From: Leucoraja ocellata
Taxonomy: Eukaryota
DNA length: 64,000 nt
Assembly (NCBI GenBank): GCA_036785375.1
Contig: JAWMAR010000388.1
Coordinates: 1,798,001 to 1,862,000 of the forward strand
Reading direction: 5' to 3'
Position numbers and translations under genes: made by a program. A model generated the notes under the pieces. That model was not told the origin of the DNA, searched no databases, and saw nothing but the letters and a program-made list of their open reading frames with translations. Shown piece by piece: positions 1 to 39,500 of this stretch (position 1 is the first letter of the stretch; the number at the start of each line of letters is the position of its first letter).

Positions 1-3000
1 GCAAACCCCTGTAAACCCGCAAAACCCCTCTAAACCCCAGATAGACCCTCTTAACCCATCTAAACCCTATGTAAACCCCATGTAAACCCCCCTAAACCAA
101 TGTAAACCCCCCTAAACCAATGTAAACCCCTCCAAACCCCTCCTCATTCCTACAAACCGCACTAAAACTCTCCAGATCTCTCTAATCCAATAGAAATCCC
201 TCTAAACCCCTATAAACCCCTCTGTAAACCTCATGTAAACCCCTCCAAACCTCTGTGAACCACTCTAAACGCCTCTTAACCACAATAAATCCCGGTAAAC
301 CCCTCTAAACCCATGTAAACCCCTCTATCCCCTCTAAACCCCTATAAAGCCCCGTAAACCCCTCTAAACCCATCTAAACGGCCTATAAACACCATACAAA
401 CCTCCTAAACCCAATTAACCACATCTAACCCCCTAAAGGCATGTAAAACCCCTCTAAACCCCCTGTAAACCTCTAAAATCCTCCAAACCCCCTGTAAACC
501 GTTCTAACCTCTCTACACCTGTAAACCCACATGTAAACTTTTTCCAAACCCAGTAAACCCATGTAAACACCTATAAACCCCCTGTAAACCACTGTAAATC
601 CATGTAAACCTCCCTAAACCTCTTTTAATTCCCAGTAACAACTCCAAATCCCTCCAACCCCTCAGCCCTTGTAATCCCCTGTAAATGCATCTGAACCCCT
701 CTAAACACCTTTAAACCTAAACATTTCTAAACCCCTCCAAACCCCTCCAAGCTGCTCTAAATCTCCCCCAACCCCTCCAATCACCTCCAAACCCCTCTAA
801 ACGCCCATCCAAACTCCTCTAAACCCCTGTAAACCCCTCTAAACCCATCTAGCCCCCCCTGTAAACATCATGTAAGCCCGTCTAAACCTCTGTAAACCCC
901 TCTCAACCCCTCTAAACCGATATAAAGCCCTCTACCCTCAAAACCCATCATAACCCCTGTAAACCCCATGCAACTCCCCTAACCCCCTGTAAACCCGCCT
1001 CAAAACCCTGTAAACCTCCCTAACACCATCTAAACCCCTGTAAACCCCCACCCCCAAACCCCTGTAATCCCCATGTAACCCCAGCTAACCACTTAAAACC
1101 CTCCACACCCATGTAAACCTCTCAAAACCCTCTAAACACATGTAAACCCTATGTAAACCCCTGTAAATGACTCTAAACCTTTTAAACGCCTGTGAAACGA
1201 TCTAAACCCCTGACAACATCTGTAAACAACTCTAAACACGTAAACCACTGTAAACCCCTCTAATCCCTTCTAAACACATCTAAACCCCTGAAAACCTCTC
1301 TAAACACCTGCAAACACATGTAAACCAGTCTAAACACCTGTAAATCCCTCTAAAGCACTGTATTTCCCTCTAACCCCTCTAAACCCATGTAAATCCCCCT
1401 AAACATCTGTAAACCCCATATAAACCCCCCTAAACCTCTGTGTGCCCTTCTAAACCCCTGTAAACTTCTCTAAGGCACTCGAAACACCTCTAAACCCCTC
1501 TAACCCCCTCTAAACACATTTAAAACCCTCTAACCCCCTCGAAACCCAATTAAAACACTCAATCCCTCTAAACGTCTGAAAATCCTCCCCAAACCGATGT
1601 AAATCCCTCCACCCCTCCAAACCACTCTACACCCCTGGAAACCCCTCCAAATCCCATCCAATCCGCTCTATACCTCTCCAGCCACCGCCAAACCCCATGC
1701 AAACCCCCTATACATCCCTCCAGATCCCTCCAAAGCCCTCCAAACACCCTATAAAGCCATCTAAACCCCTCCAACCCCCCTGTAAACCCCTCTAATCACC
1801 TGTATACAACCTTGAACGCCTCTAAACCCCTATAAAGCCCGCTACACCCCTCAAAACCTACGTAAACCCCTGTAGACCCCTATAAAGCCCTGTAAACCCC
1901 ATGTAACCCCCCTAATCACCTATAAACCACTCTAAACACCGGTAAACACCTTTAATTGCCACTAATCCCCTGCAACCCCCTCTAAACCCCCTGTAAACCT
2001 GTCAAAACTCATCTAAACCCCCTGTAAACCCCATGTAAACCCCTCTAAAGCCATGTAAACCTCTCTAAACCCATCCAAACCCCATATAACGCCCTCTAAC
2101 CCCTCTAAACCCATGTAAACCCCATGTAAACACTTCTACACACCTGTAAACCCCTCTAAAATCCTCTAAATAACTGTAAAATCCTCAAAATACTGTAAAC
2201 CCCTCTACACCCCTGTAATACTCTCTCAAACCCTCTAAAGCCGTCTAAACCCCTCTAAACCCCGTTAAAGCTCTCTAAACACCTGCAAACACTTGTAACC
2301 CCTCTAAACCCATATAAAACATTCTAAACCCATCTAAACCCCATGTAAATCCCTCAAACTCCCTGTAAACCCCTCTAAACATCTGTAAACCCCATCTAAA
2401 CCCTGTAAACCCCTCTGAACACCTCTAATCCCATGCAAACTACAGTAAACCCGTCTAAGCCCCAGTAAACGCATGTAAACCCTCGACACCTCCCCCCCAG
2501 TAAACCCCTATAGCGCCCTCTAAACCAATCGAAACCCCCTGTAAATCCCATGGAGCCCCCTCTAAATCCATGTAAACCTCTCTAAACCCCCCATGAACCT
2601 CTCTAAACCACTCTATACCTTGCAAGCCCCATGTAAACCCCTCTAAACCCATCAAAACCCCTGTAAACCCCTCTAACCACTAATCCCCTGCAAACCCCGG
2701 AAAACCCCTCTAAGTCCCAGTAACTGCCTGCACACCCTGTAAACCCCTCGAGACCACCTGTAAAACCCTATAACGTCCTCTAAACCACCTAAACCCCCTG
2801 TAAACCCCATGTAAACCCCTCTAATCCCATGTAAACCTCACGAAACCCCTCTAACCCCCCTATAAAGCCCTCTAACCCCTCTAAACCCATGTAAACCCCT
2901 CTAAACCCATGTAACACCCCTGTAAACCCCATGTAAACATCTCTAAACACCTTGTAAACCTCTCTAAAATCCTCTAAATAACTCTAAAATCCTCTAAATC

Positions 3001-5560
3001 CTGTAAACCCCTCTACACTCCTGTAATCCTCTCTCAAACCCTCTAAAGCCGTCTAAACCCTCTAAACCCCATGTAACTCCCTCTAAACCCCTCTAAACAC
3101 ATGTAAACCCACCTAAACCATTGTAAACCCCTCTAAACACTTCTAATCCCCAGCAAACCCCAGTAAACCCCTCTAAGCCGCAGTAAACACATGTAAACCC
3201 CTCGTCCCCCCCCCAGTAATCCCCAGTAAACCCTTATAGCGCCTTCTAAACCAATCTAAATCCCCTGTAAACCCCATGTAAACCCCTCTAAACCCCTGTA
3301 AACCCCAATAAACGTCTTTACACCTGTAAACACCTGTAAACCCCTGTAAACCCCTCTAAACTCCAGTAAATCCTTCTAAATTCATTTTAAACACCTGTAA
3401 ACATAATCTAAACCCCTCTACACCCATGTAAACCTCTCCAAACATCTCTAAACAATGTAATCAACTTTAACCCTCTCTAAACTTCTCTAAAACCCGTTAA
3501 ATCTCATGTAAACCCCTCTAAACCGTACTACACATGTAAACACATATAAACCCCTTTAACCCCTATAACGCCATCTAAACCAATCTAACCCCCCTGTAAA
3601 CCTCACGTAAACCCCTCTAAACCCATGAAAACATCTCTAAACCCATGGAAACCCATGGAAACCCCATGGCAACCATTCTAAACCCCTGTAAACCCATGTA
3701 ACCCCATGTAAACCGCTCTAAACATCTCTAAACCACTGTAAACAACTCTAAACCCCTCTAAACCGTACTACACCTGTAAACACGTGTAAACCCCTTTAAA
3801 CCTAAACCCTTCTAAACACCTGTAAGCATTCCTAAAACCCTCTAAAACCCTTTAAACCCCTTTAAACACATGTAAACACCTGTAAAACCCTCTAACCGAT
3901 GTAAACCCCTCTAACCCCTCCAAACTGCTGTAAACCTCTCCAGGCACCTCCAACCACCTGCAAACCCCCTTTAAATCCTTCCAACGCCTTCAAAACCCCA
4001 TAAATGCATCTAACCCCCTATAAACACCATGTAAACCCCATGTAACCCCCTCTAAACCCCTGTGAACTACTCGAGACGCCTCTAAACCCATATAAATCCC
4101 TGTAAACCTCTCTAAACCCATCTAAAGCCCCCCATAAACACCATGAAACCCCCCTAAACCCCCATAACCCCACGTAAAACCCCCCTAATCACCCCCAAGG
4201 CCCTCTAAACCCCTGTAAACCCATGTACATCCCCCTAAACTACTGTACACCCCCTGTAAACCTCTCAGACCCTATAAACCCCTGTAAACCCCCCTAACCC
4301 TGTAAACCCCATGGAAACCTCCCTAAACCACTGTAAACCCCTCTGAACCCACGTAAATCTCTCTAAACCACTGTAAACCTCTCTACAACCCTCTAAACAA
4401 CTGTAAACCCCTGCAAACCCGATGTAAACTCCCCTAAACTCCCGTGAACTTTCTAAACACATGTAAACATCTCCAAAACCCTATTAACCCTATGGAAACC
4501 TGCCCAAACCACTGTCAACCCCTCTAAATCCCTATTACCCTCTCTAAACCCTCTAAACATCTGTAAACCCCTCTAAACCCCTGTAAATCCAAACCCCTCT
4601 AAACCCCTCCAAACTGTTGTGAACCTCTCCAGGTACCTGCAAACACCTGCAAACCCCCTTTAAATCCTTCCAAAGTCCTCCAAATCCCTATAAAGGCATC
4701 TAACCCCTATAACACCCTGTAACCCCATGTAACCCCCTCTAAACCCCTGTGAACTACTCGAGACGCCTCTAAACCCCTATAAAGCCGTGTAAACCCCTCT
4801 AAACGCAATCAAAAGCCCCCTGTAAATACCATGTAAATCCCCCTAAATCCCATTAAACCTCATGTAAACCCCCCTAAACTACTGTAACCCCCTATAAATC
4901 CATGTAAACCTCTAACCCCTGTAAACATCTCTAAATCCTCTAAACACTGTAAACACATTTAAACTTGTAAACCTCCATAAACCCCTCTAAAACCCTGTAA
5001 ACCCGTCAAATCACCTATAACCCCCCTGTAAACCCCATGTAAATCCCCCTAAACCTCTGTAAACCCCTCTAAACCCCTGTGAACCCACCTAAGACCCACT
5101 AAACCCTTGCAAACCCCTCTAAACATCTCTACGCCTGCAAACACATATAAACCCCGTTAACAACTTTAAACCCCTGTACACCCTCTAAACCTCTCTAAAC
5201 ACCTGTAAACACCTGTAAATCCCTCTAAACCCATGCAAATCACTATAAACCACACCAAACTCCTCCAACCCCCTCTAAACCCATGTAAACCGCTGAAAAC
5301 AACTCCAAACCCTCTAAACCCATATAAAAACACTTTGAAACCCATGCAAACCCCATGTAAACTCCCCTAAACTCCCATAAACATTCTAAACACCTGTAAA
5401 CATCTCTAAAACCCTATAAAACCCTATGGAAACCTCCACAAACCACTGTCAACCCTTCTAAACCCTGTAAACCTCTCTAAAACCCTCCAAACACCGGTAA
5501 ACACATGTAAACCCTATGTAAACACCTGTAACCCCTATATACCTCTCTAAAACCCTCTAA

Positions 5561-5783
5561 TAATAATAATATAATAATAATCTTATTTGTATAGCACATT
5601 TTTAGTCAACTTGCATTGACTCCAAAGTGCTTCACATAATTACATTACATTTACACACAGGCAAAGTGGGTGAAGTGTCTTGCCCCAAGGACACAACGAC
5701 AGTATGCACTCCAAGCGGGATTCGAACCGGCTACCTTCAGGTCGCCAACCGAACACTTAGCCCATTGCGCCATCTGTCGTCCC
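5561..5783 (-). mobile_element. tRNA-derived CORE-type SINE with L2-like tail, inserted in the satellite
   Basis: Minus strand: A box TGGCGCAATGG, B box GGTTCGAATCC, CORE-like GTGTCCTTGGGGCAAGACACTT, tail ...GTGCTATACAAATAAG(ATT)n. Confidence 0.75.
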
Positions 5784-8714
5784 ACATAAAACCCTATAAA
5801 ACCCTATGGAAACCTCCACAAACCACTGTCAACCCCTCTAAACACCTGTAAACCCCACAATGCCCTGTAAACCCTTCTAAACACCTGTAAGCATCCCTAA
5901 AACCCTCTAAAACCCTTGAAACCCCTCTAAATACAACATGTAAACACCTGTAAAACCCTCTAAACACCTATAAACCCATCTAAACCTCTGTAAATCCCTC
6001 TAACCGATGTAAACCCCTATAACCCTCCAAACTGCTGTAAACCTCTCCAGGCACCTCCAAACACCTGCAAACCCCCTTTAAATCCTTCCAACGCCTTCAA
6101 AACCCCTATAAATGCATCTAACCCCCTATAAACACTATGTAAACCCATGTAACCCCCCTCTAAACCCCTGTGAACTACTCGAGACGCCTCTAAACCCTAT
6201 AAAGCCCTGTAAACCTCTCTAAACCCATCTAAAGCCCCCCATAAACCCCACGTAAACCCCCTAATCACCCCTAAGGCTCTCTAAACCCTGTAAACCCCAT
6301 CCCCCTAAACTACTGTACACTCCTCTAAGTTCATGTAAACCTCTAAACCCCTGTAAACCTCTCTAAATCCTATAACACCTGTAAACACATGTAAACCCCT
6401 GTAAACCTCTCTTAAACCCCTGTAAACCTCTCTAAAACCCTCTAAACACCTGTAAACCCCATGTAAACCCTCTGTAAACCCCTCTAATCACTCTAACCCC
6501 CCTAACCCCCTGTAAACCTCTCTAAACACCTGTGAATCTATCTAAGACCCGCTAAACCCTTGCAAACCCCTCTAAACCTCTCTACGCCTGTAACCACATA
6601 TAAACCCCATGTTAACTCATTTAAACCTCTGTACACCCCTCTAAACACCTGTAAACACCTGTAAATCCCTCTAAACCCATGCAAATCACTATAAACCACA
6701 CCAAACCCCTCCAACCCCCTCTAAACCCATGTAAACCCCTGAAACAACTCCAAACCCCTCTAAACCCTGTGAACCACACTAAATGCATTTAAACCACAGT
6801 ACAGCCGGCTAAACCGCTCTAAAACCATGTAAAACCCCTCTAAACCTATTTAAACCCCTCTGCAAACACCATGTAAACCCCCATAACCCCTGTAAACCAC
6901 TCTAAACCTCTCTAAAATCCTGTAAACCTCACACAATCTCTCCACACACCAATAAAGCACTCTAAACCCCTCAAAACACATCTACGCCTCTGTAAATCAC
7001 ATGTAAACCTGCCTAAACGCCCTGTAAACCCCAATAAACACCCTGTAAACCTCTTTGAAACCCTCTAAAGTCATCTAAACCCCTCTAAACCTATCTAAAT
7101 GCCTGCAAACACCTGGGAACCACTCTAAACACCTGCAAACACATGTAAACCTCTCTAAACCCCCTGTAAACCCCATGTAAACCAACCTAAACCCCTGTAA
7201 ACCCCATGTAAACCCCCCTAAACACCTGTAAACCCTTCTAAACACCTGTAAACATCTCTAAAACCATCTATATCTCTCGAAACTTCTCTACTTTAAACCT
7301 CTCTAAATACCTGTAAACACCTGTAAACCCCTTTAAACCCCGCAAACCCCATGTAAACGCCCCTAAACCCCCGTAAACCCTTCTAAACACATGTAAACAC
7401 CTCTAAAACCCTATAAAACCCTTTATACCCCTCTACACCACTCTAAATATCTCTAAATACCTGTAAAGCCCTCTAACCCCCTCTAAGCCCATCTTTAACC
7501 CCCTCTAAACCCCTTTAAATCCCTATAACCCGATGTAAATCCCTCTAAACCCCTCTAACCCCCTCCAATTCCCTCCAAACCTCTCCAGACACATCGAAAC
7601 CACTGCAACCCCCCTCTAAATCCCTCCAAAGCCCTCCAACCCCCTATAAAGCCATATAACCCCCTATAAACACCATGCAAACCCTTCAAAACCCATGTGA
7701 ACCAGTATAGATGCCTTTAAACCCCCATAAAGCCAGCTATACCCTTCAAAACGCCTATACACACCTGTATACCCCATGTAAACCCCTATAAAGCCATTTA
7801 AACCGCTCTAAACCCCATGTAAACCCCCCTAAACCCCTGTAAGCCCCAGGAAACCCCCCTAAACTACTGTAACCCCCTCTAAACCCATGTAAACCTAGTC
7901 TAAACCCCTGTAAACCTCTCTAAAACCCTCTAATCACCTGTAAACCCCTGTAAACCCCATGTAAACCCCTCTAAACACCTCTTAACCCCCCTGTAAACAC
8001 TTGTAAACCCCTCTAAACTTCTCTACGCCTGTAAACACCTGTAAACCCCATTTCAACCCCCTTGAAATCCCCGTACACCTATCTAAAACCATCTACACAC
8101 ATGTAAACCCCTCTAACCCTCTCTAAACATCTGTAAACACCTATAAACACATGTAAACCCACAAAACCCCTCTAAACACATCTAAAACCCTCTATACCCC
8201 TCTAAACCCCTGTAAATCTCCCTGGACCCATGTAAATCACTCTAAACCCCAACAAACCCTCCAACCCCCCTCTAAACCCCTGCAAACCGCTCTAAACTTC
8301 CCCAGACCCCTCCAAAGCGCCCGAAACCCTTCTAACCCCATATAAAGCCCTGTAAACCCATACAACTCCTCCCTGTAAACCTCATGTAAACCCCTCTAAA
8401 CCCCTGTGAACCACTCTAAACGCCTCCAAACCGCAATAAAGCCCGCTAAACACCTCTAAACCCATATAAATCCCCCTGTAAACACCATGTAAATCCCTCT
8501 AAACCCCTGTAAATCCCTCTAAACCCATGTAACCCGCTGTAAAGACCTGCAAACCCCATGTAAACCCCTCTAAAACCCTGTAAACCTCTCTAAAACCCTC
8601 TAAACCCCTTTAAACCACTCTAAACCTCTGTTCACCTGTAAACACCTGTAAACCCCTATAAACCTCTCTAAAACCTTCTAAACATGTGTAAACCACTCTA
8701 AAACCCCTGTAAAG

Positions 8715-8994
8715 GATAAGGGGGAAATCCTTTAAAACCGAGATGAGAAGAACTTTTTTTCACACAGAGAGAGGTGAATCTCTCGAACTCTCTGCCACAG
8801 AGGATAGTTGAGGCCAGTTCATTGGCTATATTTAAGAGGGAGTTAGATGTGGCCCTTGTGGCTAAGGGAATCAGGGGGTATGGAGAGAAGGCAGGTACGG
8901 GATACTGAGTTGGATGATCAGCCATGATCATATTGAATGGCGGTGCAGGCTCGAAGGTACTCCTGCACCTAATTTCTATGTTTCTATGTTTCTA
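8715..8994 (+). mobile_element. 5'-truncated CR1 LINE 3' end
   Basis: Typical CR1 ORF2 end/3'UTR, (TTTCTATG)n tail, candidate TSD TGTAAAG at 8708-8714 and 8995-9001. Confidence 0.9.
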
Positions 8995-11320
8995 TGTAAA
9001 GACTACTAAACACCTGTAAACATCTCTAAACCCCTCTAAGACCCTTTAAACCGCTGTAAACCACTACAAACCCCTCTAAATACCTGTAAACACCAGTAAA
9101 CCCATCTAAAACCATCTAAACCCCTCTAACCCCATCCAAATCCCTCTAAACTGCTCTAACCATCTCCAGGCACCTCCAACCCCCTGCAAACCCCCTCTAC
9201 ATCCCTCCAAAGCTCTCCAAACAACCAAATACAGGGGTTTACAGGGGTTTAAAGCCACCCAACCCCCTGTAAACCCCCTGTAACCCCCTCCAAAGACCTG
9301 TAAAACCCTGTATACCATTGTAAACCCATGTAAACTTTTCTAAACATCTGTAAACCTCTGTAAACATCTCTAAATCCCTCTAAACCACTATAAGCCCCTG
9401 TAAACCCCCTGTAAATGCACCTGAACCCCTCTAAATAATCTAAAACCCTGTTAACCGCTCTAAACCTCTGTGAATCTCTCTAAACCCCACCAAACCTCTC
9501 TAACCGCCTCTACACATCTCTAAACCCCTCCAACCCACTCTAAATCTCTCCAGACCCCTCCAATCCCATCCAAACCTCTCCAAACACCACTAACCCCGTG
9601 TAAACCAGTCTAAACACATAAACTCATCTCAACCTCTCTAAACCCATATAAAGCCCTTTAACCACTCAAAACTCATCTAGACCCCCCTGTAAACCCATGT
9701 AAACCCCCTAACCCCATGTAAAGCTCTATAAACCCCATGTGAACCTCTCTAAAACACTCTAAAGCCGCCCAAATCCCTCTAAACCTCTAAACACCCTTAA
9801 ACCCGTGTAAACCAAACTAAACCCATCTAAACCCCTGTACATCCCTCTAAACCCCTGTAAACACCTGTAAACCTCGGTAAGCCCCGCTAAGCCCCAACGA
9901 AACCCTCTAAAATCCCTCTAAACACCCTATAAAGATCTCTAAGCCCATCTAACCCCGTGTAAACCGCTGAAAAGGCCTGTAAACCCCACGTAAACCAGTC
10001 TAAACACCTGTAAACCTCTCTAAAACCATTTAAACCGCTCTAAACCACTATAAACCTATCTAAATACCTGTAAACACCCGTAAAACATCTAAACCCCTCT
10101 AAACCCATCTAAAACCCTCTAAACCCCTACAATTCACTCTAAACCAATGTAAATCTCTCTAAACCCCTGTAACCCCCTCTAAACCCCTCCAAACCCCTCT
10201 AAACCCCTCCAAACCCATGTAAACCCCTCCAAACCACTCTAAACCCATATAAACCCATCTACACCTTTATAAACACCTGTACACCCCATGTAAACTCCTC
10301 TAAACCATGTGAACCACTCTAAACGCACCTATACCCCATAAAGCAGGCTAAACCCCTCTAAAACCACGTAAAACACCTCTAAACCCATCTAAAACCCCTG
10401 TAAACTCCATGTAAACCCCCCTAAATCCCTGTAAACACCAGGTAAACCCCCCCTTAACCCATGTAAACCACTCTAAACCACTACAACCCTCTGTAAAACC
10501 CTCTAAACCCCTGTAAACCCCATCCAAATCTCTCTACACAGCTATAAAGTACTCTAAACCCCTCAAAACACATCTAAACCTCTGTAGACCCCAAGTAAAC
10601 CCCCCTAAACCCCTCTAAACCCCATGTAAACATATTTAACAACTTCTAAAGCCCTCTAAAGCCGTCTAAACCCCTCTAAACACCTGCACACCTGTAAACC
10701 ACTCTAAACTCATCTAAACACTCTAAACCATTCTAAACGCCTGTAAATCCCTCTAAAGCCTAGTAAATCCCACTAATCCCTCTAAACCCCCTGTAACACC
10801 CCTACACCCCTGTGAACCCTTCCAATCCCCTGTAAGCATCTCTAAAACCCTCTAAACCCCACTAAACCCCTCTAAACCACTCTAAACACCTGTAAACCTC
10901 ATGTAAACCCTTGGAAACCTCTCTTAAAACCCTCCAAACCTCTGTAAACCCCTCTAAACCTCTCTACACATGTAAACACCTGTAAACCCCTTTAAACCGC
11001 TCTAAACCCCGCTAAACCAATCCAAAACCCTCTAAACCACTCTAACCCCCTGTAAATCATTCTAAACCCGCTGTAAACCCATTTAACACCCTCTAAAGCC
11101 GTCAAAACGCCTGTAAACCCATCCAAACCCCTGTAAACCTCTCGAAAACACTCTAAAGCCATCTAAACCCCTCTAAACCTATCTAAACCTCTCTAAACAT
11201 CTGCAATCATCTGTAAACCCATCTTCCATCTAAAACCTCTAAACCCATGTAAACCCCTGTACGCCCCTCTAAACCCCTGTAAATCCCTCTAACCCCCTCT
11301 AAACACCTGTAAACACATGT

Positions 11321-11441
11321 AAGATTTTTAGGACTTTAAGATTTTTGCCTTCCATCACAGTGAGGAGGTGCCTGGTGAACTCACTGTGGTGGATGTTAAA
11401 TTTGTCTTTATTGTGTGTTTTTGTCATTTTTATTATATATA
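11321..11441 (+). mobile_element. 3' part of a non-autonomous retroelement, split by the Helitron (tail appears to resume at 17602-17650)
   Basis: GCCTTCCATCACAGTGAGGA...GTGGATGTT matches the reverse complement of 56580-56760; TGACAATAAAGG...CTTTGACTT tail lies after the gap. Confidence 0.6.
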
Positions 11442-11721
11442 CTAGACCAAGTGCAGACCCGTTGGGTCTGTTTCCCCAACAGCGTTTGCGGGGGGGGGGG
11501 GGGGGGCGTGAGGTGTGAAGAGGGGAGGGAGGAGGAGGAAACGGGATAGATTTGGGAGTGAAAGGAGAGCCCGGTAGGGGGTGAGAGATGGGGAGAGAGA
11601 TGTGGGGGAGGGGGGATGGGGAGGAGGGAGGGATGGGGAGAGGGGGTGGGGTAGAGAGGGAAGGGGGTGGGGGAGAGAGGGATGGGTGGGAGAGGGAGAG
11701 GGAGAGGGGTGAGGAGGGAAA

Positions 11722-12065
11722 AATAGAAACATAGAAATTAAGAGTAGGAGTAGGCCATTCGGCCCTTCTAGCCTGCACCACCATTCAATATGATCATGGC
11801 TGATCATCCAACTCAGTATCCTGTACCAGCTTTCTCTCCATACCCCCTGATCCCTTTAGCCACACGGGCCACATCTAACTCCCTCTTAAATATAGCCAAT
11901 GAACTGGCCTCAACTACCTTCTGTGGCAGAGAGTTCCAAAGACTCACCACTATCTGCGTGAAAAATGTTTCCCTCATCTCAGTACTAAAGGATTTCACCT
12001 TTATCCTTAAACTGTGTCTCGCTTGTCCTGGACTTCCACAACATCGGGAACAATCTTCCTGCATC
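11722..12065 (-). mobile_element. CR1 3' fragment inside the Helitron (copy 1 of an internal duplication)
   Basis: Translates to CR1 ORF2 C-terminus (RHSLRIK...FFTQIVVSLWNSLP); AGAAACAT tail. Confidence 0.85.
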
Positions 12066-12124
12066 AGACAAATGCAATTCAGGACTTTTGTCTTCACAAG
12101 CAAAGTCAGAATGACGGTTGTGAA

Positions 12125-13331
12125 CAAAGATCTTATAGCGGAGCAAGATAGGCTACTCCTGCTAAATGCAATGGACTGACGTGTAGTACGCTATGGAGGG
12201 GGATCATGGGCATTTTCCACGCCCATTTTAGCAACCTGAGCCTACCTAACCCGACCCGACTCGCACTGTAATCAATGTTGCGGGGCAACAGTTTGTGTGG
12301 GTCAGATTCATAAATCTGTCAGTTCAAACTTCTTGTCAAGAATAAAATTTGATTCTGGTAATTGTCTTTTTTAATGTTTTTTAAATCATTTCTTTTTAAA
12401 TGGCTCACAAGCAGTGTTTGAGTTGATTTTGTAGTAACCGGAACCGACCGACTCGCAGGGTGATTGACAGGGGGGACTTTTTGTGCGTGATTATAGGGTT
12501 AGATTCATAATTCAATTAGTTCATAATTCTGTTGATTCTTGTTAAGGAATAAAATGTTTATAAACACACATACATGAAAATTATATAAATGTATATAACA
12601 CACACAATTATATTTCTTCTAAACCAATAATGAACTTTATTTCAGACTAGACAAGGGACATTAAATAAGAAACATTGTAAATAAGAAACATTGTCTTGGG
12701 GCACTCTCTCTCCCCGCTGCCCCGGGCCCCGCACTCCTTCTCCCCCGTACTCTCTCTCCCCGCTGCCCCGCACTCTCTCTCCCCGCTGCCCCGGGCCCCG
12801 CACTCCTTCTCCCCCGTACTCTCTCTCCCCGCTGCCCCGTACTCTCTCTCCCCGCTGCCCCGCACTCTCTCTCCCCGCTGCCCCGGGCCCCGCACTCCTT
12901 CTCCCCCGTACTCTCTCTCCCGCTGCCCCGGGCCCCGCACTCTCTCTCCCGCACTCCTTCTCCCCCGCTGCCCCGCACTCCTTCTCCCCGCTGCCCCGGG
13001 CCCCCCACTCTCTCTGCCCGCTGCCCCGCACTCCTTCTCCCCCGCTGCCCCGGGCCCCGCACTCTCTCTCCCCGCACTCCTTCTCCCCGCTGCTCCGGGC
13101 CCCGCACTCTCTCTCCCCGCTGCCCCGGGCCTTGCACTCCTTCTCCACGCTGCGGATCCAATCTTTGGCCGGAAGCAAGAAGGCGGGACCAAGAAAGCGG
13201 TGCAAGATGGCGGAACAAGATGGCGGAGTCAGCTTGCTAATATGTGTCCTGTAATCACCCATGAAACCGCCCATGAGCGTACCTCACGTTTGCGTGAGAG
13301 TAACCTATCTTGCTTCGCTCTAAGATCTTTG
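12125..13331. mobile_element. Non-autonomous TIR DNA transposon (P-superfamily-like MITE), copy 1
   Basis: ~34-bp TIRs CAAAGATCTTATAGCGGAGCAAGATAGGCTACTC; perfect 8-bp TSD GTTGTGAA (12117-12124, 13332-13339); near-empty site in the duplicate at ~15327. Confidence 0.9.
12701..13150. repeat. GC-rich minisatellite inside the MITE (CACTCTCTCTCCCCGCTGCCCCGGGCCCCG-type units)
   Basis: Tandem units; far fewer copies in the second MITE (26235-26348). Confidence 0.9.
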
Positions 13332-13415
13332 GTTGTGAAGAATTCGAACAATCGCTGAACGTTCAGATGCTGCGCGCGCCTCCTGCACCAAAGGGGGGGG
13401 GGGGGGAGTCACACA

Positions 13416-13455
13416 CAAAGATCTTGTAGCGGTGAGCTCCGCTATAAGATCTTCG
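13416..13455. mobile_element. 40-bp TIR-only remnant (putative excision footprint) of the same transposon family
   Basis: CAAAGATCTTGTAGCGG-TGA-GCTCCGCTATAAGATCTTCG flanked by 8-bp direct repeat GTCACACA (13408-13415, 13456-13463). Confidence 0.85.
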
Positions 13456-13934
13456 GTCACACACTAAGCTCGTGCCTCCACAAACAGATGAGCGTCTTCT
13501 TGAATGGAGAGCGCGTGGCTGCCTCCACAAACAGTCACACACACTGTGGACCCGCCCCCACAAAAAATATTGTGTGAGGAAGGGGAGGAGGAGGGTGGGG
13601 AGGGGGAGAAGAGGGGGAGGAGAGGATGGGGGGAGAGAGGTGGAAGAGTGGGGCGGGGTTGGAGCGGGCGTGCATGAGTCGAGAGAAGAGAGAAGGGCAG
13701 AGAGAGAGAGGGGCTGGAACAACAACAAAAAAGCTGCATAAACTCAGCGGGTGCAGCGGCATCTATGGACCGAAGGAAACCCTTCTTCCGGGTTTTCGAC
13801 CAAAAACGTTGACCATTCAATTCGCTCCATAGATGCTGCCGCACCCGCTGAGTTTATCCAGCTTTTTTTTAATGTCTACCTTCGATTTTCCAGCATCTGT
13901 AGTTCCTTCTTAAAGACAGAGACTGTGCACGGTA

Positions 13935-14935
13935 AGGGAATGAGGAGGGAGAGGGGGAAGAGTGTGGAGGGAGGGGGAGAGTGGGATGGGAGGGGGAGAG
14001 GGGTGGTGGGAGAGAGGGGAAAGACGGAGGGGGGGAGAGAAGTGGAAGAGTGGGGAGGGAGGGAGGGGGGGAGAGGAGTAGCAGGAGTGGTGGAAGAGGG
14101 ACAGGGGGCGTGGTGGAAGAGGGACAGAGGGAAGGGGTGAGGGAGAGGGGAAGGAAGGGGGAGACAGGGGTGGAGGAGGGAGAGGGGTGGGGTAAGGGGA
14201 GAGAAGTGGGAGAGGGAGGGGTAGGGGGAGTGGTGGAAGGGGGCGGGGGAGAGAGGGAAGAGGGTGGGGTAGAGGGAAGAGGTGGGGGAGGGAGGGATGG
14301 GAGAGGGGTGAGGAGAGGGAGAGGGGGAGGAGAGAAGGGGGAGAGCAGTGGACGAGTGGGGAGGGAGGGAAGGGTAGCGGGAGTGGTGGAAGAGGGACAG
14401 AGGGGTAGGGGAAGGGGTGTGACAGGGAGGGGTAGAAAGAGGGGTGAAGGAGGGAGAGGGGTAGGGTAAGGGGAGAGAAGTGGGAGAGGGAGGGGTAGGG
14501 GGAGTGGTGGAAGAGGGACAGAGGGGAAGGGGGCGGGGGAGAGAGGGAAGGGGGTGGGGTAGAGAGGGAAGGGGTGGGGGAGGGAGGGATGGGAGAGGGG
14601 TGAGGAGAGGGAGAGGGGGAGGAGAGAAGGGGAGAGTAGTGGACGAGTGGGGAGGGAGGGAGGGGTAGCGGGATTGGTGGAAGAGGACGGGGAGTGGTGG
14701 AAGAGGGACAGAGGGGTAGGGGAAGGGGTGTGACAGGGAGGGGTAGAAAGAGGGGTGAGGGAGGGAGAGGGGTGGGGTAAGGGGAGAGAAGTGGGAGAGT
14801 GGGGAGGGAGGGGTAGAGGGACTGGTGGAAGAGGGACAGAGTGGTAGGGGAAGGGGCGGGGGGAGAGAGGGAAGGGGGGTGGGGGAGAGAGGGATGGGTG
14901 GGAGAGGGAGAGGGAGAGGGGTGAGGAGAGGGAAA
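13935..14935 (+). repeat. Polypurine G/A-rich low-complexity minisatellite
   Basis: ~1 kb of mostly G/A, with repeated GGAGTGGTGGAAGAGGGACAGAGGG units. Confidence 0.9.
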
Positions 14936-14937
14936 AA

Positions 14938-15272
14938 GAGAAACAGAAATTAAGAGCAGGAGTAGGCCATTCGGCCCTTCTAGTCTGCAACACCATTCAA
15001 TATGATCATGGCTGATCATCCAGCTCAGTACCTGTACCTGCCTTCTCTCCATACCCCCTGATCCCTTTAGCCACAAGGGCCACATCTAACTCCCTCTTAA
15101 ATATAGCCAATGAACTGGCCTCAACTACCTTCTGTGGCAGAGAGTTCCAAGACTCACCACTACCTGTGTGAAAAATGTTTTCCTCATCTCTGTACTAAAG
15201 GATTTCCCCTTTATCCTTAAACTGTGTCCCGCTTGTCCTGGACTTCCCCAACATCGTGAACAATCTTCCTGC
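14938..15272 (-). mobile_element. CR1 3' fragment inside the Helitron (copy 2)
   Basis: Near-identical to 11722-12065, with the same junction into CAGACAAATGCAATTCAGG. Confidence 0.85.
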
Positions 15273-15424
15273 AACAGACAAATGCAATTCAGGACTTTTC
15301 TCTTCACAAGCAAAGTCAGAATGACGGCTAGTGAAGAATTCAAACAATCGCTGAGCGTTCAAGATGCTGCGCGCGCCTCCTGCACCAAAGGGGGGGGGGG
15401 GGGGGGTGCGTGTGTCGTCACACA

Positions 15425-15464
15425 CAAAGATCTTGTACCGGTGAGCTCCGCTATAAGATCTTTG
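15425..15464. mobile_element. 40-bp TIR-only remnant, duplicate copy
   Basis: CAAAGATCTTGTACCGGTGAGCTCCGCTATAAGATCTTTG with TSD GTCACACA (15417-15424, 15465-15472). Confidence 0.85.
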
Positions 15465-16024
15465 GTCACACACTAAGCTCGCGCCTCCACAAACAGATGA
15501 GCGTCTTCTTGAATGGAGACGTGGCCGCATCCACAAACAGTCCACCACACACTGTGGACCCGCCCCCACAAAAAATATTGTGTGAGGAAGGGGAGGAGGA
15601 GGGTGCAGAGGGAGAGGGGGAGGGGGGGAGAAGAGGGGGAGAGAGGTGAAGGGGGGGGGGGGGGGTTGGAGCGGGCGTGCATGAGTCGAGAGAAGAAAGA
15701 AGGGCAGAGAGAGAGAGAGGTTGGTACAACAACAAAAAAGCTGGATAAACTCAGCGGGTGTCTTCTTCCGGGGTTTCGGCCAATGGTGACCATTCAATTC
15801 GCTCCATAGACGCTGCCACACCCGCTGAGTTTTATTCAGCTTTTTTATGTCTACCTTCGATTTTCCAGCATCTGTAGTTCCTTCTTAAAGACAGAGACTG
15901 TGCACGGTAAGGGAATGATGAGGGAGAGGGGGAAGAGTGTGGAGGGAGGGGGAAGAGTGGGATGGGAGGGGGAGAGAGGCGAAAGATTGTGGGAGGGAGG
16001 GGGGGGGTCTAAGCTATTACAGTA

Positions 16025-16437
16025 AATTAAACATTGTCACTAATGCCAGCGTGTTGTAGAGTAATAAGTCTTTAACAAATAATCTCGGAGCTGCCTGTGA
16101 AAAGTTACCGGTACTCGCGGTAAAGTGAAGCCGCGGTCTCAATTAATAAGCGGCCAATTCGCGGTCGTGGAGCCGAGGATGATCTCCGCGGGCGGGCAGG
16201 GGTGGGGAAGGGGGGGGGGGGGGGCTGTACATAGTGCCGTCTGTAGCGGTCGTTTGCTCATTTTCAGACCCTGATAACGGGAGAAAAACGGAGGGATATC
16301 GATCGCTATTTACCGCGAGTACCTAAGTTTCGCGATCGGAGCACTTTTTCCCGGCAAGTTTTCGCAGGCAGCTTCGAGATTATTTGTTAAAGACTTATTA
16401 CTCTACAACAGGCTGGCATTAGTGACAATGTTTAATT
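16025..16437. repeat. Foldback / MITE-like inverted repeat
   Basis: 16025-16111 is the reverse complement of 16351-16437; inner pair 16111-16124 / 16309-16322. Confidence 0.85.
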
Positions 16438-17649
16438 GACCGTGTTATAGTTTAGGCCCTCAATTTCATGAATGACTGAGTGAGTGAGTGAGTGAAAAGT
16501 AGGGACTTTGCTTTCTTGCACTTTAATCCACTTTGCAGCACTTTGTTCAGCCTTTTTTATGCTTTTCCCACTAAATACAATGAACCTGCTGCAAGTTTCC
16601 ATGACATTTATTCTACAGAACAACACATCGGAATCTCCAGTAAAACAGGCATCTGTAATGCCCCCTCAGCCATTTTGTGTGCTTGCCTGAAACAAAGCGC
16701 ATGATTGGCCAACTGGCAGACAACTCAATGTCAAACGTGCTTTCATTGGACTAAAAAATTCCTGACATTTTTCCCGTTTTTCTCTAATTTAATAAAAATG
16801 TGCAAGTCTTCTTCATATCGAGTTTCAGGGGTGATTTATATAAATATTTTTACACAATATGTGAAAATTTCATGTAGTTTAGTGACTTGGGTCACGAAAC
16901 TGCAGAGTAAAGCTCCTCGGCCCACAGCCTATTCCCTGTACTCCCAATATGGCAACAATGTATTTGAACATTGGGCATTGTGACATCACACGATGGAACG
17001 TTCACCGGGGCTGTGGCTCCTGCAAAGGCATATGTAAATGAATCCATTCCGATTGGACATCTGTGAGCATCGGGCATTGTGACATCACACGATGGAACGT
17101 TCACCAGCGGCTTAAACACGACGAAATGTAATGAGGAGCGGATATTTAGAAAGAAAAGCGAAATCTCTACCGAAATGGAAAAGACGTCGGCGATTCTGCG
17201 TCCGGTTTCGGAGTTGCGGTGAATCAAAGGAAGATATGCGGCCAGAAGCCGTACATGCAAATGGATCCATTCCGATTGGACGTCCGCGAGCGTCGGGCAT
17301 CGCGATTGGACGTCCGCGAGCATCAGGCATTGTGACATCGCACGGCGGGAACGAATCGAAAGGCAGGAAGGGATCCTTACGGCAGGCGGTCGGATGNNNN
17401 NNNNNNNNNNNNNNNNNNNNNNNNNNNNNNNNNNNNNNNNNNNNNNNNNNNNNNNNNNNNNNNNNNNNNNNNNNNNNNNNNNNNNNNNNNNNNNNNNNNN
17501 NNNNNNNNNNNNNNNNNNNNNNNNNNNNNNNNNNNNNNNNNNNNNNNNNNNNNNNNNNNNNNNNNNNNNNNNNNNNNNNNNNNNNNNNNNNNNNNNNNNN
17601 NTTTCGTTCAGACCGAAAGGTCTGAATGACAATAAAGGCTACTTTGACT

Positions 17650-20600
17650 TAAACCCCGGTAAACCCCGCTAAGCCCCAGTAAATGCCTGTAAACCCATGT
17701 AGACCCCTCTAGATCCCGGTAAACCCCTATATTGCCCTCTAAAACCATCTACACCCCGTCAACCCCATGTAAACCCCCCCAAACCCCATGTTAACCTCTC
17801 TAAACCCTTCTAAACCCCTCTAAACCCATGTAAACCCCTGTAAAGACCTGTAAACCCCGTGTAAACACCTGGAAACCTCTCTAAAACCCTTGAAACCTCT
17901 GTAAACCCCTCTAAACCTCTCTACACCTGTAAACACCTCTAAACCAAATCCTTCTAAACCTCATGTAAACCCCTGTAAACACCTCTAAACCCATCTAAAG
18001 CCCCCTGTAACCACCATGGAAACTCCCCTAATCCCCTGTAAACCCCACGAAAACCAATACTAAACATCTGTAATCCCCTCTAAATCCATGAAAACCTCTC
18101 TAAACCCCTGTAAACTTCTCTAAACTCGCTAAACCCTTGTAAACCCCTCTAAACCTCTCTACGCCTGTAAACACATGTAAACCCCATGTTAACACCTTTA
18201 AACCCCTGTACACCACTCTAAAACCCTCTAAACACATGTAAACTCCTCTAAACCACGCTAAATCTCTCTAAACACCCGTAAACACATGTAAAGTCATGTA
18301 AACCCATTAAACCCCTCTTAACACATCTAAAACTGTCTAAACCCCCCGCCAACCTCTCCAAACCGCTCTAAACCTCTCCAGACTCCTCCAAACCCCTGAA
18401 CACCCCTCAAAACCACTCCAAGCCCCTCTAAACCGATATAAAGCCATCTACACCCTTACAAACACCTGTATACTACATGTAACCCCCTCTAAACCCTGTG
18501 AACCACTCTAAACACATCTGTACCCCCAATAAAGCCGACTAAACCCGTCTAAAACCATGTAAAATCTCTCAAAACACTAAACCTCTGTAAACCCCATGTA
18601 ATCCCCCGCTAAACCCCTCTAAACCCCCCTGCAAACCTCTTTAACACCCTCTACAGCCATCTAAACCCTTCTAAACCTATCTAAACACCTGCGAACAACT
18701 GTATACCACTCTAAACCCCTCTAAACTCATCTAAAATACTCTAAACCATTCTAAACGCCTGTAAATCTCTCTAAACCCCTGTAATTCGCACTAGCCCATA
18801 AACCCCCTGTAAACCCCATGTAAACCCCCAGAACACATGTACACCCCATGTAAAACCTCTCTACACACATCTAAAACCCCTGTAACCTCCAAGTAAACCC
18901 TCCTAAACGCCTCTAAACCCCGTGTAAACCCATTCAACACCCTCTAAAATTGTCTAAACCCCTCTAAACCTCTCTAAACACATGCAAACACCTGTAAACC
19001 TCTCTAACCCCCTCTAAACTCATCTAAAACACTCTAAACCACTCTAAACGCCTGTAATTCCCTCTAAAGCCCTGTAAATCCCACTAACCTCTCTAAACCC
19101 CCTGTAAACCCCATGTAAACCCCCCTAAACTCATGTAAAACCTTCTAATCCCCTGTAAACATCTCGAAAACCTTCTAAACCCCTCTAAACCTCTCTAAAT
19201 ACCTGTAAACACCTGTGAACACATGTAACTCCCTCCAAACACGTCTAAACCCATCTAAAAACCTCTAAACCCCTCTAAACCCCTGTAAATCCCTCTAAAC
19301 CCCATGTAAATCCCTCTAAACCCCTCCAAACCACTCTAACCCCCTCGAAATTCATCCAAACTGCTTTAAACCTCCTCAAATCCCGGCAAACCCCTCCAAA
19401 GCCCCCCGAACCCATGTAAACCCCTCTAAACTCTCGTGAACCACTCTAAATGCCTCTAAACCGCTACAAGGCCCGGTGAACCTGTCAAAACCCCTGTAAA
19501 GCCCTGTAACACCTATACAGCCCTGCAAATCCCTCTAAACCCATCTAAACCCCCTGTAAACCCCATGTAAACCCACCAAAACCACTGTAAACTCATATAC
19601 CACATGTAAACCACTCTAAACCCTGTAATCCTCGGTACAACCTTCTAAACATCTGTACACACAGGTAAACCCTGTCGAAATTCCTCTAAACACCCTGTAA
19701 ACCTCTCTAAAACCCTCTAAACATCGGTAAACCCCTCTAAACCCCATGTCAACTCCCTAAACACCTGCAAACATTTCTAAAACACTCTAAACACCACTAA
19801 ACACCTCTAAACCACTCTAAACCTCTCTAAATATCTGTAAACACCTGTAAATTCCTCTAAACCGATGTAAATCCCTCTAAACCCCTCCAAACCCCTCTAA
19901 CCACCTCCAAAGCCCTCCAAACCCCTATGAAGCCCTCTAAACCCCCTATAAACACCCTGTAAACCCCATGTAAACCCTTCCAAACCCCTCTAAATCCATC
20001 TAAATCCCCTGTAAACCCCTGTAAGATACTATAACCCCATGTAAACCCACTAAACCCCGGTAAAACCCATGTAAACCTCCCTAAACCACTGTAAACCTCT
20101 CTAAACCCCTATAAAGCCTTGTAAACCCTTCTAATCCCATCTAAACCCCCTGTAAGCACCATGGAAACCCCCATAAACCCCTGTAAACCCCGTGTAAAAC
20201 CCCCTAAACCCTGTAAAGCCTATTAATCCTCTGTAAACATCTTTAAAACCCACCAAACCCCTCTAACCCACTCTAAACCACCAAACCTCTCCAAACCTCT
20301 CCAGACCCCTCCAAACCGCCCCACACCCCTCTAAACCCCTATAACCCCTCCCTGTAAACCTCATGTAAACCCCTCTAAATCCATGTGAACCACTCTAAAC
20401 GCCTATAAACCGCAATGAAGCCCGCAAAAAACCTCTAAACCCATATAAACCTCTCTAAACCCCTATAAAGCCTTGTAAACCATTCTAAACCCATCTAAAC
20501 CCCCAGTAAGCAACATGGAAATCCCCCTAAATCCCTGTAAACCCCGTGTAAAATCCCCTAAACCCCTGTAAACCATTGTAAACGCATGTAAACCTCTCTA

Positions 20601-22635
20601 AACATCCCTAACCCCTGTAAACAACTCTAAATCCCTCTAAACCACTACAAGCCCTTGTACACCCCCTGTAAATGCATCTGAACCCCCCTAAACACCTCTA
20701 AACCCCGGTAACCGCTCTAAACCCCTGTGAACCTCTCTAAACCACTCCAAACCTCTCTAAACCTCCTGTAAACCCATGTAGAACCCCTAAACCCCTGTAA
20801 ACCTCTCTAAACCCCTCTAAAGCCGTCTAAACCCCCCTCTAAACACCCGCAATCATCTGTAAACCCCTCTAAACCCATCTAAAACGCTCTAAACCCATCT
20901 GAACCCCTGTAAATCCCTCTAAACACTTGTAATCCCTGGTAAACCTCGCTAAGCCCCAATAAACGCCTGTAAACCCCTTTAGATCCCTGTAACCCCCTCT
21001 AAACCTCTATAAACACCCTATAAAGACCTCTAAACCCATCTATACCCAAGTAAACACCTGTAAAGACCTGTAAACCCCACGTAAACCCGTCTAAACACCT
21101 GTAAACCCTCTAAAACCCTGTAAAGCCTACTCAACAGCTGAAAACATCTCTAAACCTCTAAGACCCTTTAACCCGCTCTAAACCACGCTAAACCTCTCTA
21201 AATACATGTAAACACCCGTAAACACCTGTAAAACGCGCTAAACCCCTGTAAATCTCTCTAAACCCCTCCAAACTGCTCTAAACCTCTCCATACACCCCCA
21301 AACACCATGCAAACCCCCTCTAAATCCCTTCAAAGCCCTTCAAAGACCCCGCAAATCCCCAGTAAACGCCGGTAAACCCCTTTAGATCCCTGTAAACCCC
21401 TCTAAACTCATGTAAACCTCTCTAAAACCCTCTAAACCCCCTGTAAACCATACTAAATCTCGCTACACCTGTAAATCCCTCTCCACCTGTAAACACCTGT
21501 AAACCCCTATAAACCTCTCTAAAACCCTCTAAACACGTGTAAACCCCTCGAAACCCCTGTAAAGCCTACTAAACACCTGTAAATATCTCTAAAACCCTCT
21601 AAACCATTTAAACCGTTCTAAACCCCTCTAAACCCATCTAAAACCCTCCGAACCACTCTAACCCCCTCCAAATCCCTCCAAACTGCTCTAAACTGCACTA
21701 AACCTCTCCAGAGACCTCCAAACTCCTGCAAGCCCCCTCTACATCCATCCAAAGCCCTCCAAAGCCAACCAAACACATATAAAGCCATCTAACCCCCCAT
21801 AACACCCTGTAAACCCCATGTAAACCAACCTAAACCGCAGTTAGTTACTCGAGACGTCTCTAAACCCTTATAAAGCCCGCTAAACCCCTTAAAACCCCAT
21901 GTAAACACCATGTAAACCCCCAAAACCACTGGAAACTCCTCTCAACCCTTGTAAACCTGTTAATCTCTCTAAAACCGTCTAAGCACCTATAAACACGCGT
22001 AACCCCTATGTAAACCCCTCTAATCCCCTGTAAACCTCTCTAAAACACCCTAAACGCCTGTAAACCACTATAAACCTCTGTAAACCCCTCTAATCCCCTC
22101 TAAACACATATAAAACCCACTAAACCCCTCAAAACCCATCTACCCCCCCAAACCCCGTAAACCCATGTAAACATCTCTAAACAACTATAAAAGCCCTCTA
22201 AACCCCTAAAAACCCATCAAAACATCTGTAAACACGTAAACCCCCTAACCCCCTGTAAATCCTTTAAACCCATATAAACCCCTGTACATACCTCTGAACC
22301 GCTGTACATCCCTCTAACCTCATCTAAACACCTCTAAACACTTGTAAACCCCGGTAAACCCCGCTAAGCCCCAGTAAACGCCAGTAAACCCCTCTAGATC
22401 CCTGTAAACCTCTGTAAACCTATCTAAACACACCATATATACCTCTAAACCCCTCTAAACCCCTGGAAACCCCTCTAAAACCATCGAAACCTCTGTAAAC
22501 CCCTCTAAACCTATAAACACCTGCAAACCCCTTGAAACCTCTCTAAACCCCCTAAAACGCCCTCTAAACCCCAGTAGGCCCATCTAAACCCCGTGTATAC
22601 CCCATGTAGGCCCCCTTAAACCCCTGTAAACCCCC
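17650..22635. repeat. Continuation of the ~10-bp TAAACCCCTC satellite
   Basis: Same unit and orientation as 1-11320. Confidence 0.95.
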
Positions 22636-23837: not shown

Positions 23838-24025
23838 GGGGTTTAGAGGAGAATTAGAGGGGATTAGATAGGTTTGGGGGGTTTTGAGTGGTTTCGAAGT
23901 GTTTAGAGGGGGTTTCGTTGGGCATAGAGGAGTCTAGAGGAGTTTCAAGGGGTTTAGAGGGGCTTAGGGGGGTTTAGAGGTATTTCGAGGTGTTTAGACG
24001 GGTTTAAAGGTGTTTAGAGGGGTTA
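23838..24025. repeat. Short block of the same satellite in inverted orientation (GGGGTTTAGA)
   Basis: Reverse complement of the main satellite unit. Confidence 0.9.
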
Positions 24026-38735: not shown

Positions 38736-39039
38736 CTGCAAAGCAAAGGCCACATGAATGTTAACCTCTCTCTCTCTCTCTTGTCTATTTCATGCAACTT
38801 CACCTGAGTATCACACACTATTAGTTAATCACTCCGCCTTGATCCCACCTTGGAAAACATTGGCTGAAAACGTCTTGGGTGCCAATATCTGGCAGTTACT
38901 GCCAAATGTACGCACAATTTCGAGTTGGAAATATATCGATAGGCCTCCAGTATTAATTACTGTAAAATTCCCAGCATTTCTCAGGAATGCTCAATGGCTA
39001 TAACTAACGTTGGCGTATGTGTTACAATCTCACCAAACT

Positions 39040-39500
39040 TCTTGTTGCGACTGGGGATGATGGAGCAAGGGCGGATCTACGGGATACAGTGTAGACACGT
39101 GTGAGAGTCTCGTCTATTGTAAAAGTGGAGAATACCCGCTCTCTAAAGAATGAGGACCTCGGATATCCTGGGATGGAACAACTCATCTTGGGAGCAGTTG
39201 CACGGAGATGGATGAATTTGGGAATAGGACATACAGTCTTTGCAGGAGGCAAGGTTGGAAGAGGTGTAGTCCTGATAGCTGTGTGAGTCCGTAGATTTGT
39301 CATTTACGTCAGTCGATAGTCTATCTCCTGCGATGGAGACGGTGAGATCAACAAAGGGGAGGTATGTGTCGGGGATAGACCCGGGGAATTTGATCGTACG
39401 GTCAAAGTTTGTAGACAATGAAGTCGATGAGTTCTGCATGGGTACAAGAGGAAGAGTTCGGGGAATCGGCCAGTCTGTGTCAGGGGTTGTCCCGTGTACC
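39040..39500 (-). mobile_element. Penelope-like element RT fragment in the J-Cmu intron
   Basis: PFVDLTVSIAGDRLSTDVNDKSTDSHSY motif. Confidence 0.8.

What the first reader, a model, noticed from the sequence alone, without database searches (positions are those of the whole stretch)
13408..13463. 40-bp TIR-only relic matching a P-element-type excision footprint (17-nt end retained)
Seen: between perfect 8-bp direct repeats (GTCACACA) lie only the first 17 nt of the left TIR, 3 filler nt and the last 20 nt of the right TIR of the CAAAGATCTT family. It was copied with its segment to 15425-15464. Known: Drosophila P transposase makes a 17-nt staggered cut, and end-joining repair leaves about 16-17 nt of each TIR plus both TSDs; hAT excision goes through flank hairpins and does not leave TIR ends. 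Inference: this is a fossil of germline excision by a P/THAP9-type transposase in a vertebrate, and a mechanistic signature that classifies the family.
Basis: partly seen in the sequence, partly recalled or inferred. Interest (0 to 1): 0.75.

Follow-up and report, generated by a model that had tools for sequence, protein, structure and literature searches.

The report
Fossil transposon excision scar, probably P-type
A 40-base leftover of a jumping gene's two tips in a skate-like fish genome looks like the scar that P-type transposons leave when they cut themselves out, but one scar cannot prove the cutting chemistry.

Summary
The relic is real: a 40-bp near-palindrome of the two tips of a 34-bp-TIR DNA transposon, between perfect 8-bp repeats (0 of 40 shuffles give one). 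The second copy is the same event carried by a tandem duplication, so n = 1. Two longer non-coding family members lie in the window. The best reading is an excision scar of a P-type element: its size falls within Drosophila P end-joining scars (30-44 bp). But '17 nt' is one of several parses (17+3+20, 19+1+20, 20+20, 17+6+17), and the 20-nt arm exceeds what a 17-nt cut leaves. Abortive gap repair, reported for hAT too, is not excluded. No transposase was found, and no eukaryotic genome could be searched, so the retained-length histogram was not run. Verdict: observation confirmed; P-type scar about 0.6; not by itself a classifying signature.

The parts
13408..13415 (.). left 8-bp target-site duplication GTCACACA
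13416..13432 (+). left arm: first 17 nt of the TIR (one mismatch at position 11; 16 nt if this end carried A17, 19 nt if position 18 is a later substitution)
13433..13435 (.). junction nucleotides TGA (13433-13438 under a strict 17+6+17 parse)
13436..13455 (-). right arm: first 20 nt of the TIR, read inwards (19 of 20 here, 20 of 20 in the second copy)
13456..13463 (.). right 8-bp target-site duplication
15417..15472 (+). second copy of the relic with both repeats, carried by the tandem duplication; not an independent insertion
12125..13331 (+). E1: 1207-bp non-coding family member, 34-bp TIRs, target repeats GTTGTGAA (12117-12124, 13332-13339), 76 bp from the relic's left repeat
26088..26925 (-). 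E2: 838-bp non-coding family member in opposite orientation, target repeats CTTGAAAT, inserted in a LINE-like repeat
12179..12192 (+). 14-bp box shared by both ends; position 55-68 from the A end of E1 (partner 13276-13289, position 43-56 from the B end; in E2 26858-26871 and 26130-26143)
12224..12239 (+). 16-bp subterminal inverted repeat; position 100-115 from the A end (partner 13229-13244, position 88-103; in E2 26811-26826 and 26175-26190)
11581..16002 (+). tandem duplication of a roughly 2-kb unit (11581-14019+ interrupted by E1; 14791-16002) that carries both relic copies
15327..15335 (+). site in copy 2 matching E1's target, without E1; differs from the single target by one substitution and one extra base

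Best explanation
An element of this 34-bp-TIR family inserted into GTCACACA and duplicated it (shown). Later a P-type (THAP9-like) transposase cut it out with a long staggered cut, leaving single-stranded tails of the element's tips on both flanks (inferred from Drosophila P chemistry). The tails were end-joined with a few added or copied bases, leaving both target repeats and 16-20 nt of each tip (product shown; route inferred). The 20-nt arm needs one extra step: about 3 nt copied from the sister chromatid before joining, a filler that happens to match, or a stagger longer than 17 nt in this family. The scar became heritable, and a later tandem duplication copied it (shown). It is inert: it lacks the inner 14-17 bp of each TIR, the shared box and the subterminal repeat.
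For: Structure beyond chance. Both breakpoints within 10-20 nt of the ends: probability 0.0002-0.0003 for a random internal deletion of an 838-1207-bp element. Drosophila P scars: 17-nt 3' tails stay on the flanks; 32 of 66 listed junctions keep at least 13 nt on both sides, total 30-44 bp; 6 of 66 have inserts of 4 nt or more with both arms at least 15 nt (counts hand-entered from the table, spn-A mutants only). hAT and MULE excision leaves flank hairpins, not element tips. Family anatomy: 8-bp target repeats in 3 of 3 sites, CA...TG ends, 34-bp TIR (P: 31 bp Drosophila, 27-31 bp Anopheles, 27 bp medaka Izanagi; Ac: 11 bp); one 16-bp subterminal inverted repeat (longest shared word in 200 shuffles: 10); a 14-bp box 20 and 8 bp inside the TIRs on the same 12-bp offset (E1 12 of 14: 2 of 500 shuffles on any diagonal, 0 of 500 on that offset; E2 11 of 14: 30 of 500 and 1 of 500), against 21 and 9 bp for the Drosophila transposase sites.
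Against: One event only. Parse not unique. One arm is 20 nt, above the 17-nt maximum of pure end joining. A nearby template for a 6-nt filler (13465-13471, 6 of 7) is no better than chance (P 0.12-0.25). No transposase or THAP remnant: 0 of 12 frames of E1/E2 above a Pfam cut-off, 0 DNA-transposase hits in 246 of 379 stop-to-stop frames scanned. The 12-bp offset was noticed after the fact, could be a single indel in a decayed 103/115-bp inverted repeat (spacer similarity: 15 of 2000 shuffles), and zebrafish Pdre2, a true vertebrate P, does not share the Drosophila layout. Target repeats of 8 bp and CA ends are shared with hAT.
Confidence: 0.6

Rival explanations
1. Abortive gap repair after excision of a hAT-type (or other 8-bp) element: opened flank hairpins invade the sister copy, restore the target repeats, copy 17-20 nt of each end and anneal at the short self-complementary centre.
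For: Abortive gap repair is invoked for Ac, P, Tc1 and Mutator derivatives. It explains an arm longer than 17 nt directly. TIR positions 19-20 are self-complementary and the relic centre holds a 6-nt palindrome, so a 20+20 join with 2-nt overlap plus a 2-nt insertion scores almost as well as the best parse (31.5 vs 32). 8-bp repeats and CA ends fit hAT.
Against: Both tracts must stop within about 20 nt; the Ds classes described are about 400 bp or longer (passages). The long TIR and single subterminal repeat are unlike Ac's 11-bp TIR with many hexamers.
Confidence: 0.17
2. Transposase-independent loss of the interior: the TIRs pair as a stem on single-stranded DNA and replication slippage or nuclease processing removes the inside.
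For: The relic folds as a 17-bp hairpin (z -4.9 and -3.6). Many TE polymorphisms in rice are internal deletions unrelated to transposition. The region is rich in unstable low-complexity repeats.
Against: The stem of a full element is 34 bp, yet both breakpoints lie in the middle of it, not at the loop; slippage between the 8-bp repeats would remove the whole element (reasoning). The hairpin score is a consequence of any end-only product and favours no route.
Confidence: 0.12
3. A mobile 40-bp mini-MITE that inserted as such.
For: It has both termini and a perfect target duplication; TIR-only mobile elements exist (human Made1).
Against: The two copies share flanks and target repeat, so there are 0 independent second insertions among the 8 family ends in the window. 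It lacks half of each TIR and all subterminal motifs. Anopheles P-MITEs share 114-198 bp with their masters; 40 bp is probably too short for end pairing (own knowledge).
Confidence: 0.07
4. Add-on to the best explanation (local hop): E1 is the element that left the relic and reinserted 76 bp away; it was later lost from duplicate copy 2.
For: Chance of two of three sites within 100 bp is about 0.013. The 20-nt arm matches E1's A end (G17), not E2's. The copy-2 site has 2 changes in 9 nt (P 0.08 at background). P elements hop locally, though at 50-150 kb in the review.
Against: E1 and E2 differ at 19 of 782 sites, the duplicates at 31 of 710 (Fisher P 0.04): E1 looks younger than the duplication. 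Needs a second excision.
Confidence: 0.15

Closest known systems
Drosophila melanogaster P-element excision footprints (Chan, Yu and McVey 2010, PMC2895639, Table 1)
   Same: Both 8-bp target repeats intact, tips of both TIRs kept, short filler, total 30-44 bp.
   Different: There arms are at most 17 nt (SDSA-deficient flies) and the event is induced; here one arm reads 20 nt, the event is an old natural one in a vertebrate, and the transposase is unknown.
Drosophila P element ends (PMC7776569; site coordinates in PMC3698922)
   Same: About 31-34-bp TIR, 8-bp target repeat, one subterminal inverted repeat about 100 bp in, internal shared site offset by 12 bp between ends (54-61 at the 5' end there; box starts at 55 and 43 here).
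   Different: No sequence identity shown; box not shown to bind a THAP domain; subterminal repeat 16 bp rather than 11.
Vertebrate P families: zebrafish Pdre2/THAP9 (PMC10983969), medaka Izanagi (PMC2820524)
   Same: 8-bp target repeats, CA-starting TIRs, non-autonomous copies of about 1 kb; Pdre2 has subterminal inverted repeats.
   Different: Pdre2 TIR 13 bp with 400-bp spacers; Izanagi has a 27-bp TIR and a decayed THAP domain, which E1/E2 lack; TIR sequences differ.
hAT superfamily (Ac/Ds, TcBuster) and abortive-gap-repair derivatives
   Same: 8-bp target repeats, CA ends, internal deletion derivatives.
   Different: Direct footprints alter flanks through hairpins and hold no TIR; Ac TIR is 11 bp with many short subterminal repeats; described derivatives are far longer than 40 bp.
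Made1 (TIR-only MITE of Hsmar1)
   Same: Element reduced to its two ends with a few junction bases.
   Different: Made1 keeps whole TIRs and was amplified (80 bp, TA target: recalled); this keeps half of each TIR and shows one insertion.

Membership tests
P superfamily | 7-8-bp target-site duplication | tested here: met
   8 bp at 3 of 3 independent sites
P superfamily | TIRs starting CA, typically about 27-32 bp (range 3-32 in papers read) | tested here: met
   34-bp TIR beginning CAAAG; comparison. Not exclusive: CA also fits hAT
P superfamily | subterminal inverted repeat and asymmetrically spaced internal site | tested here: met
   16-bp repeat and 14-bp box, 12-bp offset versus 9/21 bp; post hoc, and not universal among P families
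P superfamily | THAP + RNase H-type P transposase in an autonomous copy | tested here: inconclusive
   No coding remnant in E1/E2 or in 246 frames; both are non-autonomous, and the rest of the genome was not available
P superfamily | internal site bound by a THAP domain | not testable with these tools
   needs the family's transposase
P-type excision footprint | both target repeats intact with tips of both TIRs | tested here: met
P-type excision footprint | retained arms of at most 17 nt | tested here: inconclusive
   left 16-19, right 17-21 depending on parse; best-matching right arm 20
P-type excision footprint | peak of retained length over independent events, with varied fillers | not testable with these tools
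   one event in the window; no eukaryotic genome collection; bacterial, plasmid and phage collections gave 0 hits
hAT superfamily | 8-bp target duplication and CA/TA ends | tested here: met
   Table 1
hAT superfamily | short TIR with many short subterminal repeats | tested here: not met
   34-bp TIR; few repeated 7-mers in E2's ends apart from one tandem 10-mer and the single 16-bp repeat; compared with Ac only
hAT superfamily | direct footprint with altered flanks and no TIR sequence | tested here: not met
   flanks perfect, TIR tips kept; does not exclude gap repair
mobile mini-MITE | identical copies at unrelated sites with different target repeats | tested here: inconclusive
   2 of 2 copies share flanks; only 64 kb examined

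The most novel reading that the evidence does not exclude
A P-superfamily transposon with Drosophila-like 12-bp end asymmetry was mobile in skates, and its excision scars are a genome-wide fossil record from which the stagger of a vertebrate P transposase can be read; here it would be about 20 nt rather than 17, showing that the long staggered cut is conserved in kind but not in length.
Probability: 0.2. Interest if true: 0.65.

Novelty: new member of a known kind. Interest (0 to 1): 0.4.

Why it matters
The 17-nt staggered cut is described for the Drosophila enzyme; in the parts of the zebrafish THAP9 paper that I read, excision is shown but no cut position is given. If scars like this are common in a skate genome, their length histogram gives the cut position of a natural vertebrate P transposase without any biochemistry, and offers a way to tell P from hAT among 8-bp-TSD families that have lost their transposase. 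The single relic has no sign of function; its value is as a lead.

Tried and rejected
Search for the TIR in prokaryotic genomes (25-mer, then 20-mer: 0 and 0), E2 in plasmids and the relic in phages: nothing, as expected for a vertebrate repeat. Rfam over 11320-17400: 0 matches. Pfam: 30 long frames, 12 frames of E1/E2 (three weak hits, E 0.34-1.6, all below cut-off) and 246 frames of 55 aa or more gave only LINE, immunoglobulin and two sub-cut-off chance hits; 133 of 379 frames were dropped beforehand (satellite, LINE-like, E1/E2, low complexity). Templated-filler test: not significant. Target-site consensus: three sites are too few. Rejected: chance structure; two independent insertions; treating the hairpin z-score as evidence of function. 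A recombination-signal-like site at 13542 is 80 bp from the relic and has an 11-nt spacer; no link seen. Literature: the 10-nt TIR start gave 68 papers, the 20 listed unrelated by title; searches listed no report of this family or of fossil P scars in cartilaginous fish, but only top listings of an open-access library were seen, and Repbase and Dfam were not available, so the family may already be catalogued.

Full report
Context. The window is vertebrate DNA: satellite arrays, LINE fragments and an immunoglobulin heavy-chain-like gene. The only named homologue of one constant exon is from the thorny skate Amblyraja radiata, 87% identical, so the source is probably a skate or close relative (inference from one hit).

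Observation. The relic is as described: 40 bp at 13416-13455 between perfect GTCACACA repeats, and again at 15425-15464. An unbiased scan for short inverted-repeat elements between direct repeats found these 2 and nothing else in 64 kb; 0 of 40 shuffles gave a hit. The two copies lie in a tandem duplication whose halves differ at 31 of 710 sites, so they record one event. The arms come from a family with two longer members, E1 (12125-13331) and E2 (26088-26925), each with 34-bp TIRs and its own 8-bp target repeat. Duplicate copy 2 lacks E1 and shows one slightly altered target, which supports E1 as a true insertion. Neither element has coding remnants.

The parse. The left arm matches the TIR for 17 nt, mismatches at 18 and matches again at 19; the right arm matches for 20 nt. 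Counting mismatches plus filler, 19+1+20 and 20+0+20 are as economical as 17+3+20 or more so, and a 20+20 join overlapping at 2 nt with a later 2-nt insertion is close behind. With about 4% divergence since the duplication alone, a substitution at position 18 is possible, though my rough estimate still favours 17+3 by a few fold (reasoning, not a call). Position 17 is G in both relic arms but A in 3 of 4 full ends, so the left arm could be 16 nt. A strict P reading, 17+6+17, needs three filler bases to match TIR 18-20 by chance; a near-template in the right flank exists but is expected 12-25% of the time. The honest statement is that 16-20 nt of each end are kept.

Mechanism. Both breakpoints lie near the termini, which a random internal deletion would do with probability 0.0002-0.0003, so the loss was directed at the ends. 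Drosophila P transposase makes a 17-nt staggered cut (PMC7776569), and the tails stay on the flanks; in Table 1 of PMC2895639, 32 of 66 listed isolates keep at least 13 nt on both sides, 30-44 bp in all. The relic is of this shape and size. hAT and MULE enzymes leave hairpins on the flanks, giving small flank changes without element sequence (PMC5499845; PMC3499496). But abortive gap repair copies ends back in for several superfamilies (PMC3814204), and an arm of 20 nt cannot be a plain 17-nt tail. So the scar favours P chemistry without proving it.

Independent test of the family. Aligning the two ends of the full elements beyond the TIR gave a perfect 16-bp subterminal inverted repeat in E2 (2 mismatches at one end of E1) at 100-115 and 88-103 from the ends, and a 14-bp box at 55-68 and 43-56, on the same diagonal. 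The best diagonal over the 53-nt spacer is offset 12 in both elements (28 and 23 matches; next best 24 and 21). Drosophila P has 31-bp TIRs, an 11-bp subterminal repeat about 100 bp in, and transposase sites 9 and 21 bp inside the TIRs; the 5' site is at 54-61 (PMC3698922), and the 3' site falls at 42-49 from the end if the element is 2,907 bp (length recalled). Here the spacers are 8 and 20 bp. The match is striking but was seen after the fact, could be one indel in a decayed long repeat, and is not shared by zebrafish Pdre2. With the 34-bp TIR (P 27-32 bp; Ac 11 bp) I put P-superfamily membership at about 0.7 and the P-type scar at about 0.6.

Shown versus inferred. Shown: the structure, its origin from this family, one event copied once, non-coding full elements, subterminal repeat and box with 12-bp offset. 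Inferred: the transposase type, the staggered cut, the repair route, germline origin (from the copy being duplicated afterwards in the genome), the order relic, then duplication, then E1. A local-hop variant (E1 as the departed element) is possible: E1 sits 76 bp away (chance about 0.013), but E1-E2 divergence (19 of 782) is lower than that of the duplicates (Fisher P 0.04).

Limits. No transposase in 246 of 379 frames scanned. No eukaryotic genome was searchable; prokaryotic, plasmid and phage searches were empty. The decisive histogram was not run. Papers seen: PMC10983969 parts 1-2 of 7 and passages; PMC7776569 passages and sections 6 and 9; PMC2895639 passages and section 7 with Table 1; passages only of PMC2820524, PMC1562414, PMC2233675 (not useful), PMC4423477, PMC3814204, PMC5499845, PMC3260210, PMC3499496, PMC3698922; no supplements. 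Ten searches listed nothing on this family or on fossil P scars in cartilaginous fish; repeat databases were not available.

Verdict. A real end-only relic, most likely a P-type excision scar: a new instance of a kind well known from Drosophila, and P elements are already known in fish. It does not classify the family alone, but with the end architecture it makes a testable lead. Interest 0.4; 0.65 if the genome-wide data show a fixed stagger, above all one other than 17 nt.

Noticed in passing
window 34521-43675, minus strand: Heavy-chain-like immunoglobulin gene: a VH-type exon with a 12-spacer signal (43342), a J segment with a 23-spacer signal (42951) about 390 bp on, no D segment seen between them, and four C1 exons. 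Direct V-J layout is unusual for a heavy chain; a chain named UrIg2 was among the PDB hits but not the best, and identity with it was not tested.
   Followed up: partly
window 15327-15335: E1's empty site in duplicate copy 2 has two changes in 9 nt; background divergence or a second excision scar.
   Followed up: partly
window 1-11314, 17650-22634, 23838-24024: Long degenerate 10-bp satellite arrays with strong strand skew, the last one inverted.
   Followed up: no
window 16005-16459: Element with about 100-bp inverted arms (92% over 93 nt); no clear target repeat found.
   Followed up: partly
window 29645-30302: About 660-bp imperfect palindrome (71% self-match), MITE-like; no target repeat found.
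   Followed up: partly
window 39654-40784 and 57652-57966: Two further inverted-repeat elements; the second is flanked by TTAA.
   Followed up: partly
window 11441-11475: Start of the repeat-rich block after the satellite has a 7-bp hairpin, resembling a Helitron-like end (recalled); folding not significant (z -0.9). If the relic rides in such a repeat, passive copies could confound the genome-wide count.
   Followed up: partly
window 13727-13868: Inverted pair of fragments of a dispersed SINE-like repeat (48-nt arms); copy 2 lacks 27 bp of it.
   Followed up: no
window 12701-13151 and 26253-26322: GC-rich minisatellite inside the family, expanded in E1; accounts for most of the E1/E2 length difference.
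   Followed up: no
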